From: Escherichia coli
GTDB lineage: Bacteria > Pseudomonadota > Gammaproteobacteria > Enterobacterales > Enterobacteriaceae
NCBI RefSeq assembly: GCF_030384885.1
Contig: NZ_CP128613.1
Direction: 5' to 3' (one strand)
DNA length: 64,000 bases
Shown: positions 14,286 through 50,772 of the stretch, one piece after another
Layout: every line of letters begins with the position of its first letter
Position numbering within the stretch: the first letter of the stretch is position 1
Translations under genes and position numbers: made by a program
The notes under the pieces: model-generated
Seen by the model: only the letters and a program-made list of their open reading frames with translations
Database searches by the model: none
What the model was told of the DNA's origin: nothing

Positions 14286-14317
14286 ACAGGTCGGATGCCG
14301 CGTGGCATCCGACCTGT
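14286..14317. terminator. perfect 14-bp stem hairpin between convergent genes (bidirectional terminator candidate)
   Basis: ACAGGTCGGATGCC-GCGT-GGCATCCGACCTGT read directly. Confidence 0.4.
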
Positions 14318-15391: not shown

Positions 15392-16132
15392 ATGCGTAAA
15401 ATCGCATTAATTCTTGCGATGTTGTTGATCCCGTGCGTTTCGTTTGCCGGTTTGCTGGGCAGCAGTAGCTCGACCACGCCAGTGAGCAAAGAGTATAAGC
15501 AGCAGTTGATGGGATCCCCTGTCTACATCCAGATCTTCAAGGAAGAACGTACGCTCGATCTCTACGTCAAAATGGGCGAGCAATATCAACTGCTCGACAG
15601 CTATAAAATCTGTAAATATTCCGGCGGCTTGGGGCCAAAACAGCGTCAGGGCGATTTCAAAAGCCCGGAAGGGTTTTATAGCGTCCAGCGTAATCAGTTA
15701 AAACCAGACAGCCGTTACTACAAGGCGATTAATATCGGTTTCCCCAATGCCTATGACCGTGCGCATGGTTATGAAGGGAAATACCTGATGATCCACGGCG
15801 ATTGTGTTTCCATCGGCTGCTACGCGATGACCAATCAGGGTATTGATGAGATCTTCCAGTTCGTTACTGGTGCGCTGGTGTTTGGTCAGCCGAGCGTGCA
15901 AGTGAGTATTTACCCGTTCCGCATGACCGACGCCAATATGAAGCGCCATAAATATTCCAACTTTAAGGACTTCTGGGAGCAACTGAAGCCGGGCTACGAC
16001 TACTTTGAGCAAACCCGTAAGCCACCGACCGTTTCTGTGGTCAATGGCCGTTACGTGGTCAGCAAGCCGTTAAGCCACGAAGTTGTGCAACCACAGCTGG
16101 CATCAAACTACACGCTCCCCGAGGCAAAATAA
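15392..16132 (+). CDS. yafK: L,D-transpeptidase-like periplasmic protein
   Basis: 246 aa with signal peptide and YkuD-like region ([12 protein letters not shown]). Confidence 0.85.
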
Positions 16133-16870
16133 GCGCCATTCGCCTGGCATAATCTTTTGCCAGGTTTCATTGCCCGTCAGCGGCTGTGTTGCAATCACCG
16201 TGACCACATCATTCGGTGTGGTCTGCGAGCTGAAGTCGATTTCCACATCCTGATCCAGCAACGTTGCCACGCCAAACGGCGCGCGGCGGGTGATCCAGTG
16301 TAAATTAGTCGAGCAATACGCCATTACATAGCGCCCGTCCGAAAGCAGCATGTTGAAAACGCCCTTCTGCCGCAGTTCATCCGCCAGTGAGGCGATATAT
16401 TTAAATACCGCCGCCATGTTGCCCGGTGTGCGCGGGTAACGCTGCGTTAATTTATGTAGGAGCCAGCAGAAGGCTTTTTCGCTGTCGGTTTCGCCTACCG
16501 GGCGGAAGTTGCCGGTTTCCAGTGATTTGTAGCCCGTCAGTTGTCCGTTATGGGCATAAGTCCAGTTACGCCCCCATAACTCGCGGGTAAATGGGTGAGT
16601 ATTTTCCAGCGCCACCTCGCCCCGATTAGCCTGGCGAATATGAGCCACCACCGAACAGGATTTTATCGGGTAGTCCTGGACAAGTTTGGCGATGGGGGAA
16701 TTAAAGCTGGGTTGTGGATCTTTAAATGTGCGACAGCCTTTACCTTCGTAAAAGGTAATGCCCCAGCCATCTTTATGTGGCCCGGTTCCACCACCACGCT
16801 GTACAAGTCCGGTGAAACTAAAGCAGATATCGGTAGGGACGTTGGCGCTCATCCCGAGCAATTCGCACAT
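16103..16870 (-). CDS. yafJ: class II glutamine amidotransferase-like protein
   Basis: ORF 16103..16885 trimmed to [11 protein letters not shown]; N-terminal Cys after Met is typical of class II GATase. Confidence 0.85.
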
Positions 16871-16958
16871 CGGTAACCTCCACAACAGCGGGAGCGCATG
16901 GCCCCCGGCGAAGATTGATTAAAAAGTAATAAGGTGCAGGCTGTTACCCTCACCCCGG

Positions 16959-16981
16959 CCCTCTCCCTGATAGGGAGAGGG
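16959..16981. terminator. perfect 9-bp hairpin CCCTCTCCC-TGATA-GGGAGAGGG downstream of gmhA (no clear U-tract)
   Basis: Read directly from sequence between gmhA and yafJ. Confidence 0.35.
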
Positions 16982-16991
16982 AGAAAAGCCC

Positions 16992-17570
16992 TTACTTAGC
17001 CATCTCTTTTTCAATTAACTGGATCAGGATATGGATCACTTTAATGTGAATCTCCTGAATGCGGTCGGCATAACCAAAGTGCGGAACGCGAATTTCGATA
17101 TCCGCCGTGCCAGCCATTTTGCCGCCGTCTTTACCGGTCAGGGTGATCACTTTCATCCCCTTCTCACGCGCCGCTGCGATCGCTTTGATCACGTTTGCAG
17201 AGTTACCAGAGGTGGAGATCCCCAGCAGTACATCGCCTTCGCGACCTACCGCTTCAACGTAACGGGAGAAAATATCATTGAAACCGAAATCGTTACCGAC
17301 GCAGGAAATATGACTAACGTCAGAAATGGCAATCGCCGGATAGCCCGGACGGTTTTCACGGTAGCGCCCCGTCAACTCTTCGGCAAAGTGCATGGCGTCG
17401 CAATGGGAACCGCCATTACCGCAGGAAAGCACCTTACCACCGGCTTTAAAGCTATCTGCTAACAGGACCGCCGCGCGCTGAATGGCGTGAATATTGGCGT
17501 CATCTTTTAAAAAGTTAGCCAGCGTTTCCGCCGCTTCGTTCAGTTCGTTACGAATAAGATCCTGGTACAT
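16992..17570 (-). CDS. gmhA: D-sedoheptulose 7-phosphate isomerase
   Basis: ORF 16992..17732 trimmed to [10 protein letters not shown] (192 aa); SIS domain. Confidence 0.9.
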
Positions 17571-20254: not shown

Positions 20255-20262
20255 TTGAATAA

Positions 20263-20286
20263 CGGAGCCGAAAGGCTCCGTTTCAT
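20263..20286 (+). terminator. intrinsic terminator after fadE
   Basis: CGGAGCC-GAAA-GGCTCCG followed by TTTC. Confidence 0.5.
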
Positions 20287-22999: not shown

Positions 23000-24889
23000 T
23001 TAAGTGAGTAGGCCACCGGAACCTCCCCGACAGCCTCTCGCAGAACCGTACGTGAAACTCTCGCTTCATACGGCTCCCGTCAGGCAAACGCGCTTCCTGG
23101 TCCTGCTTTCCAGTGGGCAAACAACTCCGGCTTCTCTTTTGACAGCCTTTCCATTAGCTGACACGCCTTCGTCTTTCTATACCGCAGGGTTTTATATTTC
23201 TTTCTCGCCCACGCAATCAGCGTCAGATTAATATATCTGCATACTTTCTTCATCGCTGATTTGTGGTATCTCGCGTAATAATTCAGCCACCCCGATATTA
23301 TCGGATTCAGCCACTTCGCAATATCTTCGAGACTCATCTCCACCCTGCGTCTGATCCACAGTTTCCTGAGTTTTCCAATCATGCCTTTCTGCGCACGGTT
23401 ACTCGCCGCCGGGCTGAAACTCGTAAAGAGGTTTCCCCGCCGGTGGTTACGTGCTCTTCGCGCTCTGAACGTATACCCCAGAAAATCAAACTGCACTGTT
23501 TCATGGTTCGCCTGTCGTTCGCTGTCTTTGCAGTAAACTATTTTCGTTTTCTCCGGATGTAATTCCAGTCCACATTCCTGAAAACGTTTTGCCAGCTTAT
23601 TCAGTAATTCCTCTGCCTGTTGTTTACTGCCACAATGAATTAATCCATCATCTGCATAACGGCACCAGGGAATTTCCGGATAATGTAACGTCAGCCATTT
23701 ATCAAACACATAGTGCAGAAATAAATTCGCCAGTACCGGGCTGATGACTCCACCCTGTGGCGTACCTTTATTTCTTTCCTTCAGTGTTCCATCCGGCATC
23801 TGCACCGGCGCTGTCAGCCACCGGCGAATAGACAGTCTTACCCATTTATCCGCACAATGTTTATCCACTGCCCTGAGTAATAAATCGTGGGGGATATTAT
23901 CGAATAACCCTTTAATATCAAACTCAAGACACCAGTCGTATTGCCAGCAACGTTTTCTGGTGACTGCTATTGCATCCAGCGCTGATTTTCCATGCCGGTA
24001 TCCGTATGAATCATTCAGGAAATAACGCTCCACTAATGGTTCAAACGTTACCAGCACCGTCATCTGCGCTATTCGATCGCTTACTGTCGGTATTCCTAAA
24101 AGTCTTTTGCTGCCATCCTTCTTCGGAATTTCCACCGCACGCACTGGCGGCGGCATCCAGCTTCCCGACGATAACCTGTTCCAGATTTTGTACAGATTTC
24201 CTTTCAGATCCCGCTCAAAATCTTTCAGCGTCTGGTTATCCACTCCGGCAGCTCCGGCATTCGCCTTTATCCGCCGGTACGCTTCCACCACATGCAATTT
24301 ACTGACCTGAAACGGTTTTGTCTGTTCACACACAGCCTCCTCCTGCCTACAGTTGGGCTGTGATGCAGACTGCCCGACGCTGTCCCTTCGCTCCACGTTC
24401 ATTACAAACGCTTCCTCACTACTACGAACAGCTCTGCCCCGGTTTCGCACATCGATACTCTCATACTCATAATTTCGGTTATTTGTATTTCTCTCTTGAC
24501 ATTGCGACGACCGGTTCCCGTAGTTCCTGCAAAGAGCCCGATACAGCGTCATGCCTGCTATACACCGGACATCATTCACGCAGCATTCGGAATTCACCCG
24601 TAAATTAATCCCGGCGGTATCACGAAACCTCCGGTTTTGATGTCACTTAGGACTAACGACGTTTCAACACAGGTTCGGGTTTACTCATCTCACTGTATCT
24701 CACATAGGATCAGATCTCGTCTGATCGTTCCCCCTGCGCTCACTACCATGGCTCTTTACCACAGCAGCCGGGGTTGTTTGGGACCGACTTCCGACAGCAG
24801 ATCCCGGTGGGCCTGCCACCATCTCTTCACAAGCTTATGCTTATTACATGCAAAACGTCCCGTTTTGCATCTTTGTGCCTACGGCACAC
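23000..24889 (-). mobile_element. group II intron (approximate boundaries), carrying an intron-encoded protein
   Basis: Minus strand: candidate 5' end GUGUG at 24889; domain V GAGCCGTATGAAGCGAGAGTTTCACGTACGGTTC at 23078..23041 immediately after the IEP stop; 3' end not precisely mapped. Confidence 0.6.
23080..24402 (-). CDS. group II intron reverse transcriptase/maturase, no endonuclease domain
   Basis: ORF 23080..24597 trimmed to MNVERRD; RT motifs including YADD (CRYADDGLIHC) and a maturase (X) domain; ends without an HNH region. Confidence 0.85.
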   Translation of the reverse strand: MNVERRDSVGQSASQPNCRQEEAVCEQTKPFQVSKLHVVEAYRRIKANAGAAGVDNQTLKDFERDLKGNLYKIWNRLSSGSWMPPPVRAVEIPKKDGSKRLLGIPTVSDRIAQMTVLVTFEPLVERYFLNDSYGYRHGKSALDAIAVTRKRCWQYDWCLEFDIKGLFDNIPHDLLLRAVDKHCADKWVRLSIRRWLTAPVQMPDGTLKERNKGTPQGGVISPVLANLFLHYVFDKWLTLHYPEIPWCRYADDGLIHCGSKQQAEELLNKLAKRFQECGLELHPEKTKIVYCKDSERQANHETVQFDFLGYTFRARRARNHRRGNLFTSFSPAASNRAQKGMIGKLRKLWIRRRVEMSLEDIAKWLNPIISGWLNYYARYHKSAMKKVCRYINLTLIAWARKKYKTLRYRKTKACQLMERLSKEKPELFAHWKAGPGSAFA

Positions 24890-31564: not shown

Positions 31565-32032
31565 ATGCTTAAACAGGTAGAAATTTTCACCGATGGTTCG
31601 TGTCTGGGTAATCCTGGACCCGGGGGTTACGGCGCTATTTTACGCTATCGCGGACGCGAGAAAACCTTTAGCGCTGGCTACACCCGCACCACCAACAACC
31701 GTATGGAGTTGATGGCCGCTATTGTCGCGCTGGAGGCGTTAAAAGAACATTGCGAAGTCATTTTGAGTACCGACAGCCAGTATGTCCGCCAGGGGATCAC
31801 CCAGTGGATCCATAACTGGAAAAAACGTGGCTGGAAAACAGCAGACAAAAAACCAGTAAAAAATGTCGATCTCTGGCAACGTCTTGATGCTGCATTGGGG
31901 CAGCATCAAATCAAATGGGAATGGGTTAAAGGCCATGCCGGACACCCGGAAAACGAACGCTGTGATGAACTGGCTCGTGCTGCGGCGATGAATCCCACAC
32001 TGGAAGATACAGGCTATCAAGTCGAAGTTTAA
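31565..32032 (+). CDS. rnhA: ribonuclease HI
   Basis: ORF 31454..32032 trimmed to [23 protein letters not shown] (155 aa); divergent from dnaQ. Confidence 0.95.
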
Positions 32033-34985: not shown

Positions 34986-35016
34986 AAAGGCACCGATTCC
35001 CCCGGTGCCTTTTTTA
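34986..35016 (+). terminator. intrinsic terminator after mltD (bidirectional with yafE)
   Basis: GGCACCG-ATTCCCC-CGGTGCC followed by TTTTTTATTT. Confidence 0.6.
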
Positions 35017-42294: not shown

Positions 42295-42336
42295 ATAACA
42301 TGTAGTTAAAACCTCTTCAAATTTGCGGTGCAAATT

Positions 42337-42413
<77 letters not shown>

Positions 42414-50743: not shown

Positions 50744-50772
50744 AAAGGGTCCTGAATTTCAGGACCCTTTTT
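50744..50772 (+). terminator. intrinsic terminator after proS
   Basis: GGGTCCTGAA-AT-TTCAGGACCC followed by TTTTTT. Confidence 0.6.

What the first reader, a model, noticed from the sequence alone, without database searches (positions are those of the whole stretch)
16959..16981. Perfect 9-bp hairpin without U-tract between gmhA and yafJ
CCCTCTCCC-TGATA-GGGAGAGGG lies just downstream of gmhA on the coding strand but is not followed by a T-run, so it is not a classic intrinsic terminator. It may be an RNA-stabilising stem-loop or protein-binding site separating gmhA from yafJ.
Basis: seen in the sequence. Interest (0 to 1): 0.15.

Follow-up and report, generated by a model that had tools for sequence, protein, structure and literature searches.

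The report
BoxC triplex-motif repeat after gmhA
The hairpin is real, but it is the stem of a copy of BoxC, a known short repeat scattered around E. coli genomes (also called PIT or TMECO), so it is ordinary; its most likely effect here is to protect the end of the gmhA message from degradation.

Summary
The hairpin sits exactly where reported (16959-16981) and has no T-run on either strand. On the gmhA sense strand (minus in this window) it reads TTTTCT-CCCTCTCCC-TATCA-GGGAGAGGG-CCG-GGGTGAGGG. That matches the published BoxC/PIT/TMECO pattern with no mismatch, as type B. A 57-nt unit recurs about 7 times (up to 16) per E. coli genome.

The hairpin is not a conserved gmhA feature. Of 5426 E. 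coli genomes, 4558 carry three REP elements at this spot, as K-12 does, and only 328 carry BoxC. In other genera the site is empty or holds REP or ERIC elements; two Buttiauxella species hold BoxC-like copies.

Published work reports no promoter or terminator activity for these elements, and triplex formation in vitro only. In published K-12 Term-seq tables I found RNA 3' ends 3-4 nt (in one case 10 nt) after the BoxC-type hairpin at five loci. Three of them lie between co-directional genes; one scores as non-intrinsic and lies in a Rho termination region.

Most likely reading: a known repeat whose RNA hairpin blocks 3'-to-5' exonucleases. That role is inferred for this locus, not shown. Low interest; already known.

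The parts
16931..16987 (-). Whole BoxC repeat unit, about 57 nt: 5' flank TTTTCT, the three-block motif, and the 3' flank TAACAGCCTGCAC.
   Evidence: BLAST alignments to other genomic copies cover query positions 5-61 of window 16991-16925. The alignment with K-12 hrpB-mrcB (TMECO 1/2) and rhaD-rhaA copies shows shared flanks. Published BoxC length is 50-56 bp (PMC2267715).
16973..16981 (-). C-rich arm CCCTCTCCC, the 5' arm of the hairpin in gmhA sense. It starts 10 nt after the gmhA stop codon.
16968..16972 (-). First loop, TATCA. Six other E. coli strains with this allele that I aligned have TTTCA.
16959..16967 (-). First G-rich block GGGAGAGGG, the 3' arm of the hairpin and the purine strand of the potential triplex.
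   Evidence: Invariant in 7 aligned alleles.
16956..16958 (-). Second loop CCG, which defines 'type B' TMECO. By analogy with K-12 copies, the predicted RNA 3' end falls at about 16955.
   Evidence: Type definition in PMC4666352. K-12 ppiC, lldD and glnH 3' ends lie 4 nt after the hairpin.
16947..16955 (-). Third block GGGTGAGGG, the potential Hoogsteen strand.
   Evidence: Pattern match. All nine triads are canonical for the purine motif: 7 G*G.C, 1 T*A.T, 1 A*A.T.
16992..17570 (-). gmhA (lpcA) coding sequence, 192 aa. Its stop codon TAA is at 16994-16992.
   Evidence: RefSeq annotation of identical loci.
16103..16870 (-). yafJ coding sequence (class II glutamine amidotransferase), 121 nt downstream of gmhA and co-directional with it.
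16890..16906 (-). Older small GC hairpin GGGGGC-CATGC-GCTCCC just upstream of the yafJ ribosome-binding site (GGAGG at 16881-16877). It belongs to the flank shared by all alleles, not to BoxC.
   Evidence: Shared with K-12. Present as a G-run/C-run hairpin in the short intergenic regions of Enterobacter, Lelliottia, Leclercia, Citrobacter, Kluyvera and others.

Best explanation
The hairpin is the duplex part of one copy of BoxC, a dispersed enterobacterial repeat also published as the PIT element and as TMECO; this copy is type B. In a minority of E. coli lineages it fills a spot right after the gmhA stop codon that holds three REP elements in most strains.

Shown here: sequence membership in the family, many copies per genome, and presence/absence variation at this locus.

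Known from the literature: the G-rich strand folds into an intrastrand purine-motif triplex in vitro, which was not detected in vivo. The elements showed no promoter or terminator activity. Their loci are unusually variable between strains.

Inferred for this locus: when gmhA is transcribed, the RNA forms a 10-bp hairpin of -18 kcal/mol with no U-tract, and this hairpin blocks 3'-to-5' exonucleases (PNPase, RNase II). Transcripts that end or are cut further downstream would be trimmed back to about 4 nt past the stem, near window 16955 on the minus strand. That would leave a stable gmhA message and uncouple its level from yafJ. REP elements would plausibly do the same job in the K-12 allele.
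For: Membership:
- The published pattern CCCTCNCCC-N3-6-GGGNGAGGG-N3-GGGNGAGGG matches 16947-16981 (minus) with 0 mismatches; 0 matches are expected by chance (pattern from PMC4666352).
- The 67-nt query finds 32,343 places in 4592 E. coli genomes, median 7 and maximum 16 per genome.
- The best other copy in K-12 lies between hrpB and mrcB, which is the published TMECO 1/2.
- The flanks TTTTCT and CAGC-GCAC are shared among type B copies.
- All nine triads are canonical.

Not locus-specific:
- K-12 has three REP elements here.
- 4558 genomes carry that allele, against 328 with BoxC.
- Across 80 Enterobacterales species the gmhA-yafJ spacer has a median of about 50 nt. In some species it holds REP or ERIC elements, and two Buttiauxella species hold BoxC-like copies.

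RNA role, by analogy:
- K-12 Term-seq 3' ends lie just after BoxC-type hairpins: 4 nt at ppiC 3959467(-), lldD 3781065(+) and glnH-glnP 847200(-), 3 nt at yjbD 4231270(-), and 10 nt at cstA-ybdD 632098(+) (PMC7815308 Supplementary file 1). I verified the positions on the K-12 sequence at ppiC, lldD and glnH-glnP and checked the gene context at yjbD and cstA-ybdD.
- About 0.06-0.08 such coincidences are expected by chance in the LB 0.4 set, against 4 seen.
- The lldD end has an intrinsic-terminator score of 1.3 (threshold 3) and lies in a significant Rho termination region.
- A Rho termination site lies about 290 nt beyond the ppiC end.
- Dar and Sorek showed that stable stem-loops without a U-tract define the steady-state 3' ends of Rho-terminated mRNAs by stopping PNPase and RNase II (PMC6061677).
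Against: - There are no transcript data for a strain carrying this allele, so the RNA role here rests on five sister copies in K-12.
- Earlier functional tests of PIT elements found no effect on transcription (reported in PMC4666352).
- The element is missing from 94% of E. coli genomes and from most genera at this site, so gmhA does not need it.
- Within the BoxC allele the C-rich arm is decaying in some strains: a 6-nt deletion shortens the stem to 6 bp, and PCN033 has a C-to-T change. This argues against strong selection on the hairpin.
- yafJ starts only 121 nt downstream, and an older hairpin at 16890-16906 could already serve as the protective structure.
- The family was not traced to a mobilising enzyme, so how it spreads is unknown.
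Confidence: 0.8

Rival explanations
1. It is a neutral or selfish repeat with no function at this locus. On this reading the hairpin and the RNA ends seen at sister copies are by-products of a stable structure, not something selection keeps.
For: - The locus varies in presence and absence: 328 genomes with BoxC against 4558 with REP elements.
- The C-rich arm has decayed in some strains.
- The element is absent from most genera at this site.
- Published tests found no promoter, terminator or polymerase effects in vivo, and no link to the classes of flanking genes (PMC4666352).
Against: - RNA 3' ends do pile up at five K-12 copies with tens of thousands of reads, so the hairpin has a molecular effect on transcripts whether or not it is selected.
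- The site is always filled with some hairpin-forming repeat in Escherichia (REP or BoxC).
- This rival differs from the best explanation only on whether the effect matters for fitness.
Confidence: 0.4
2. It acts at the DNA level. The single-stranded G-rich strand folds into an intrastrand purine-motif triplex during replication or transcription, which stalls polymerases and promotes local rearrangement. The element would then be a source of genome instability rather than an RNA signal.
For: - All nine triads are canonical.
- CD and NMR show stable triplexes for type A and type B oligonucleotides, melting at 70-82 C.
- TMECO loci are rearranged between strains far more often than control intergenic sites (PMC4666352).
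- This locus fits that picture, with at least four alleles: three REP elements, fewer REP elements, BoxC, and truncated BoxC.
Against: - In vivo DMS footprinting did not detect the triplex, and adding the complementary strand gave duplex signals.
- Variability may simply reflect gain and loss of a repeat at a permissive site. REP and ERIC elements occupy the same site in other lineages without any triplex motif.
- This reading does not exclude the RNA role.
Confidence: 0.25
3. It is a hairpin placed 10 nt after the gmhA stop codon that stalls the terminating ribosome and lowers GmhA output through mRNA cleavage, as reported for REP elements within 15 nt of a stop codon.
For: - The stem starts 10 nt after TAA.
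- Several K-12 copies lie 11-23 nt after the stop codon of the upstream gene: hrpB 13, lldD 11, ilvC 14, tauD 17, adk 23 (Table S2 of PMC4666352).
- The effect of REP elements within 15 nt of a stop codon is described in PMC12306157, citing Liang, Rudd and Deutscher 2015.
- The K-12 REP allele also starts about 10 nt after the stop codon.
Against: - This has not been tested for any BoxC copy. The original paper could not be read here.
- Spacing to the upstream gene ranges from 11 to 164 nt across copies, with no preferred distance.
Confidence: 0.1
4. It is an intrinsic (Rho-independent) terminator or a protein-binding operator that separates gmhA from yafJ.
For: The hairpin is GC-rich and stable and lies between two genes.
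Against: - There is no U-tract on either strand, and the scan finds no terminator here.
- The sister copy at lldD has an intrinsic-terminator score of 1.3, below the threshold of 3.
- No terminator activity was found for PIT elements.
- No binding protein is known, and the sequence recurs at unrelated loci.
- No Rfam family reaches threshold.
Confidence: 0.03

Closest known systems
BoxC, also published as PIT (potential intrastrand triplex) element and as TMECO; type B
   Same: - It matches the published three-block pattern exactly, with CCG as the second loop.
- It shares the TTTTCT and CAGC-GCAC flanks with K-12 type B copies (hrpB-mrcB, ilvC-ppiC).
- It is intergenic and present in many copies per genome.
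- Its locus varies between strains.
   Different: Nothing in the sequence differs. K-12 has no copy at gmhA-yafJ, so this copy is not among the 23 listed for MG1655. I could not check whether it is among the 62 conserved loci catalogued in 56 strains, because the stored supplement is cut. It stands alone rather than in an inverted type A plus type B pair.
REP / BIME elements
   Same: - They are short, hairpin-forming, dispersed intergenic repeats.
- They occupy exactly this site in K-12, in most E. coli and in E. albertii.
- Their hairpins have no U-tract and protect upstream mRNA from exonucleases (PMC6061677).
   Different: The sequence family is different: no REP motif is present in the window's spacer. 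REP elements have no third block and no triplex potential. They also have a known mobilising enzyme family (RAYT transposases; my own knowledge), and none is known for BoxC.
Protective 3' stem-loops of Rho-terminated mRNAs (Dar and Sorek 2018)
   Same: It is a stable stem-loop without a U-tract. [quoted passage not shown]
   Different: This is a functional class, not a sequence family. The 3' end has not been mapped at this locus. Here a translated gene (yafJ) follows within 121 nt, so downstream ends would come from processing or read-through decay rather than from nearby Rho termination.
Intrinsic terminator
   Same: It has a GC-rich hairpin downstream of a stop codon.
   Different: It has no U-tract. 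No terminator activity is reported for the family, and the intrinsic-terminator score at a sister copy is low.

Membership tests
BoxC / PIT / TMECO | Three-block pattern 5'-CCCTCNCCC N3-6 GGGNGAGGG N3 GGGNGAGGG-3' (Holder et al. 2015) | tested here: met
   Exact match at 16947-16981 on the minus strand, with 0 matches in 100 shuffles. The pattern is quoted from PMC4666352.
BoxC / PIT / TMECO | Dispersed, multi-copy and intergenic in E. coli genomes | tested here: met
   32,343 places in 4592 genomes, median 7 per genome, nearly all chromosomal. The copies I examined lie between hrpB and mrcB, rhaD and rhaA, ilvC and ppiC, and lldD and trmL.
BoxC / PIT / TMECO | Sequence similarity to accepted members that extends beyond the motif (unit of about 50-56 bp) | tested here: met
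   86% identity over 57 nt to the K-12 hrpB-mrcB copy, which is TMECO 1. Flanks are shared in the alignment. Unit length is given in PMC2267715.
BoxC / PIT / TMECO | Third block can pair with the purine arm by purine-motif triads (G*G.C, A*A.T, T*A.T) | tested here: met
   9 of 9 triads are canonical.
BoxC / PIT / TMECO | Sub-type defined by the second loop: type A is TTA, type B is CCG | tested here: met
   The second loop is CCG at 16958-16956, so this is type B with no mismatched triplet.
BoxC / PIT / TMECO | Folds into a stable intrastrand triplex as single-stranded DNA | not testable with these tools
   Shown by CD and NMR for type A and type B consensus oligonucleotides, and not detected in vivo (PMC4666352). 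Not measured for this exact sequence.
REP / BIME | REP consensus palindrome (GCCGGATG / CATCCGGC-type arms) | tested here: not met
   No REP motif is present in the window's spacer, whereas the K-12 and E. albertii alleles have REP motifs.
Intrinsic terminator | GC-rich hairpin followed directly by a U-rich tract | tested here: not met
   The hairpin is present, but the next bases are CCGGGGUGAGGG in gene sense and AGAAAAGCCC in antisense, and the scan reports nothing at this site.
Protective 3' stem-loop of Rho-terminated or processed mRNA | Stable stem-loop without a U-tract | tested here: met
   -18.4 kcal/mol, 10 bp.
Protective 3' stem-loop of Rho-terminated or processed mRNA | Steady-state RNA 3' end mapped just downstream of the stem, extended in pnp/rnb mutants | not testable with these tools
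   There are no transcript data for this allele. Five K-12 sister copies have Term-seq ends 3-10 nt after the stem. Dependence on exonucleases has not been examined for them.

The most novel reading that the evidence does not exclude
BoxC elements, which have been left without any function for thirty years, would be a second REP-like class of mRNA 3'-end protectors in E. coli. The gmhA-yafJ site, where BoxC and a three-REP cluster are alternative alleles, would then be a natural swap experiment showing that the two repeat families are interchangeable for this role. The Term-seq coincidence at five K-12 BoxC loci comes from my reading of published tables. I found no paper that states it, though my literature searches were limited.
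Probability: 0.35. Interest if true: 0.4.

Novelty: already known. Interest (0 to 1): 0.15.

Why it matters
For annotation, the value is mostly negative. This hairpin should be labelled as a BoxC/TMECO repeat copy, not as a gmhA regulatory signal. The obvious check, K-12 transcript maps, would mislead, because K-12 carries REP elements here instead.

Two modest points of wider use came out of the check:
- Published K-12 3'-end maps place strong RNA ends right after BoxC hairpins at five loci. That gives this long-orphan repeat a testable RNA-level role.
- The few bases after the gmhA stop codon are a recurrent landing site for three different small repeat families across Enterobacterales. Together with the natural alleles within E. 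coli, this makes the locus a convenient place to compare their effects on an operon.

Tried and rejected
- Rfam scan of 16500-17400 at a permissive threshold: only sub-threshold noise, with ctRNA_pGA1 at 21 bits against a gathering score of 45. Rejected.
- Promoter and terminator scan: nothing at the hairpin and no promoter-like site in the spacer.
- A second copy in the window: none, even allowing 3 mismatches.
- A 31-aa ORF at 16919-17014 (minus) that overlaps the hairpin: it overlaps the gmhA 3' end in another frame and consists of repeat sequence, so I did not pursue it.
- First literature search on 'box C' with REP and ERIC returned only typing papers. The second search found the relevant ones.
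- Hoyne and Maher's functional PIT paper and Liang et al. 2015 are not held, so their results are cited second-hand through PMC4666352 and PMC12306157.
- The Dar and Sorek supplement is not held, so only the Adams et al. tables could be mined.
- Searching the Holder supplement for gmhA, lpcA or yafJ found nothing, and the stored file is cut. I cannot say whether this locus was already catalogued.
- Covariation test on the older GC hairpin upstream of yafJ: 4 consensus pairs and no compensatory changes, so uninformative.

Full report
**Observation.** The plus strand at 16959-16981 reads CCCTCTCCC-TGATA-GGGAGAGGG, as reported. Both neighbouring genes are on the minus strand: gmhA at 17570-16992 and yafJ at 16870-16103, with a 121-nt spacer between them. 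Read in gene sense, the region after the gmhA stop codon is TAA-GGGC-TTTTCT-CCCTCTCCC-TATCA-GGGAGAGGG-CCG-GGGTGAGGG-TAACAGCCTGCACC. As RNA it folds into a 10-bp stem with a 3-nt loop at about -18.4 kcal/mol. No T-run follows on either strand, and the terminator scan reports nothing here. A perfect GC-rich 9-bp hairpin of any sequence is not very improbable in 64 kb: about 0.23 are expected, and the window holds 8 distinct perfect hairpins of 9 bp or more. What is far beyond chance is the longer motif described next.

**Identity.** Three bases further on lies a third block, GGGTGAGGG, which nearly repeats the purine arm. The 35-nt stretch at 16947-16981 (minus) matches, with no mismatch, the pattern 5'-CCCTCNCCC N3-6 GGGNGAGGG N3 GGGNGAGGG-3'; 0 of 100 shuffles contain a match. 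Holder et al. 2015 (PMC4666352) published this pattern for the element they call TMECO. It was described earlier as BoxC and as the PIT (potential intrastrand triplex) element. The CCG second loop makes this copy type B. All nine base triads that the third block would form with the hairpin are canonical for the purine motif.

A BLAST search with the 67 nt after the gmhA stop codon finds 32,343 places in 4592 of 5426 complete E. coli genomes. The median is 7 and the maximum 16 per genome, almost all on chromosomes. In K-12 the best match lies between hrpB and mrcB. That site is TMECO 1/2 in Table S2 of the paper. Another copy pair lies between rhaD and rhaA in strain D1. Aligned copies share flanks beyond the motif, TTTTCT upstream and CAGC-GCAC downstream. 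This gives a unit of about 57 nt (16931-16987), which fits the 50-56 bp quoted for BoxC (PMC2267715). No Rfam family reaches threshold.

**The locus is not conserved.** K-12 has no such hairpin after gmhA. Its 205-nt spacer holds three REP elements in the same place, and the two alleles become alignable again only about 50 nt before yafJ.
- Among 5426 E. coli genomes, 4558 carry the K-12-like REP allele over at least 80% of its length.
- Only 328 carry the BoxC allele. The remainder have other versions.
- Among seven BoxC alleles I aligned, the two G-rich blocks are invariant but the C-rich arm is not. Two strains have lost one TCTCCC unit, leaving a 6-bp stem, and PCN033 has a C-to-T change. 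The window's TATCA loop is TTTCA in the other six.

Across 80 Enterobacterales species, gmhA and yafJ stay adjacent and co-directional, and the spacer has a median of about 50 nt. In many Enterobacteriaceae that short spacer consists only of a small GC hairpin and the yafJ ribosome-binding site. The bases just after the gmhA stop codon have been filled independently by different repeats:
- REP elements in E. albertii and some Citrobacter;
- ERIC elements in other Citrobacter and in a Photorhabdus;
- BoxC-like type A copies in two Buttiauxella species.

The hairpin is a lineage-specific repeat insertion at a permissive site. This matches the published finding that TMECO loci are rearranged between strains far more often than control intergenic regions.

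**What it does.** The literature assigns no function. The G-rich strand forms a very stable intrastrand triplex as an oligonucleotide (melting at 70-82 C by CD and NMR), but in vivo DMS footprinting did not detect it. Earlier work found no promoter or terminator activity, no effect on RNA polymerase, and no link to the classes of flanking genes. Purine-motif triplexes do not form in RNA, so at the RNA level only the hairpin matters.

I therefore looked for RNA 3' ends at sister copies in the K-12 Term-seq tables of Adams et al. 2021 (PMC7815308, Supplementary file 1). The sequence column holds 50 nt upstream, the end nucleotide, and 10 nt downstream; I checked this on thrL and sgrS. Five BoxC-type hairpins carry a curated 3' end. 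I verified the positions on the K-12 sequence at ppiC, lldD and glnH-glnP and checked the gene context at yjbD and cstA-ybdD.

| K-12 locus | 3' end | Distance after stem | Notes |
|---|---|---|---|
| ppiC | 3959467 (-) | 4 nt | Same type and orientation as the window; 28,044 reads |
| lldD | 3781065 (+) | 4 nt | Classified 'primary' |
| glnH-glnP | 847200 (-) | 4 nt | Listed three times in the three-condition table; 30,332 and 130,459 reads in the two entries read |
| yjbD | 4231270 (-) | 3 nt | 42,363 reads |
| cstA-ybdD | 632098 (+) | 10 nt | Seen in another growth condition |

With 1175 ends in the LB 0.4 set, about 0.06-0.08 such coincidences are expected by chance against four seen, giving a Poisson P of about 1e-6. 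The lldD end has an intrinsic-terminator score of 1.3 (threshold 3) and lies in a significant Rho termination region. A Rho termination site also lies about 290 nt beyond the ppiC end. This is the pattern Dar and Sorek described: transcripts end diffusely downstream and are trimmed back by PNPase and RNase II to a stable stem-loop that lacks a U-tract (PMC6061677). It also agrees with the reported lack of terminator activity. Three of the five loci (glnH-glnP, cstA-ybdD, lldD-trmL) lie between co-directional genes, like gmhA-yafJ.

**Best explanation.** The hairpin belongs to a known repeat (BoxC/PIT/TMECO, type B). This part is shown. When transcribed, it most likely acts as a 3'-to-5' exonuclease barrier, leaving a stable gmhA message that ends near window 16955 (minus). 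REP elements would plausibly do the same in the K-12 allele. This part is inferred from sister copies, not shown here. Whether selection maintains that effect is open: the element is absent from most strains and is partly decayed in some, and an older hairpin at 16890-16906 could serve the same purpose.

**Rivals.**
- A purely neutral repeat. This differs from the best explanation only on whether the effect matters for fitness.
- A DNA-level triplex that promotes instability. The published evidence is in vitro only.
- Ribosome stalling by a hairpin 10 nt after the stop codon, as reported for REP elements within 15 nt of a stop (PMC12306157). This is untested for BoxC.
- An intrinsic terminator or protein-binding site. 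The evidence is against both.

**Verdict.** The novelty class is 'already known' and the interest is low. The one lead that may be new is the link between BoxC hairpins and mapped RNA 3' ends.

Noticed in passing
window 16982-16991 and the same spot in L001, L006, L013, L026-L030, L033, L037, L061: The few bases right after the gmhA stop codon are a recurrent landing site for different small repeats. Most E. coli and E. albertii have three REP elements there. Some Citrobacter have REP elements, other Citrobacter and a Photorhabdus have ERIC elements, and two Buttiauxella have BoxC-like type A copies. Many genera have nothing there (spacer about 45-50 nt). In E. coli both alleles keep GTCT on the left (GGCT in the window itself) and CT...AATCAAT on the right, so the swap is confined to one short segment.
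   Followed up: partly
window 16890-16906 (minus), with the yafJ ribosome-binding site at 16881-16877: A small GC hairpin (GGGGGC-CATGC-GCTCCC) followed by GCTGTTGTGGAGG sits just before yafJ. It recurs as a G-run/C-run hairpin in Enterobacter, Lelliottia, Leclercia, Citrobacter, Kluyvera and others. Hairpins of different sequence occupy the same place in Pantoea and Kosakonia, and in some of these TTTT follows. This may be the original attenuator or 3'-end structure between gmhA and yafJ. RNAalifold found 4 consensus pairs and no compensatory changes.
   Followed up: partly
L005 1490-1520, L093, L091 (E. coli Ecol_881, NRZ96052a, PCN033): Among seven BoxC alleles aligned at this locus, the C-rich arm varies while both G-rich blocks are invariant. 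Two strains have lost one unit of the TCTCCC TCTCCC direct repeat, shortening the stem to 6 bp. PCN033 has a C-to-T change in the arm.
   Followed up: partly
L086 (K-12 3959467-3959530, minus strand, downstream of ppiC): At ppiC a separate hairpin (AGGCCTTCTCC-AG-GAGAAGGCCT) lies directly upstream of the BoxC copy, so the BoxC 5' flank TTTTCT supplies it with a U-rich tail. Even so, the mapped Term-seq end lies after the BoxC hairpin, not after that tail.
   Followed up: no
window 20261-20282: A perfect 9-bp hairpin, AACGGAGCC-TTTC-GGCTCCGTT, lies just after the fadE stop codon. The same sequence carries a Term-seq 3' end in K-12 at 240856(+), classified as the primary end of ivy and antisense to fadE. 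It is probably a shared bidirectional terminator.
   Followed up: no
window 14289-14314, 24848-24870, 31884-31909, 34987-35011, 42318-42338, 50745-50769: These are other perfect hairpins of 9 bp or more in the window. Together with the two above there are 8 distinct ones, where about 2 registrations are expected by chance. The one at 14289 has GGTCGGATGCC arms and looks REP-like. None was examined.
   Followed up: no
window 16947-16967 (minus): The G-rich half, GGGAGAGGGCCGGGGTGAGGG, has four G-runs with loops of 3, 2 and 3 nt, which is a canonical G-quadruplex motif. Holder et al. excluded a quadruplex for the full DNA oligonucleotide by NMR. RNA was not examined, and a purine-motif triplex cannot form in RNA.
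   Followed up: no
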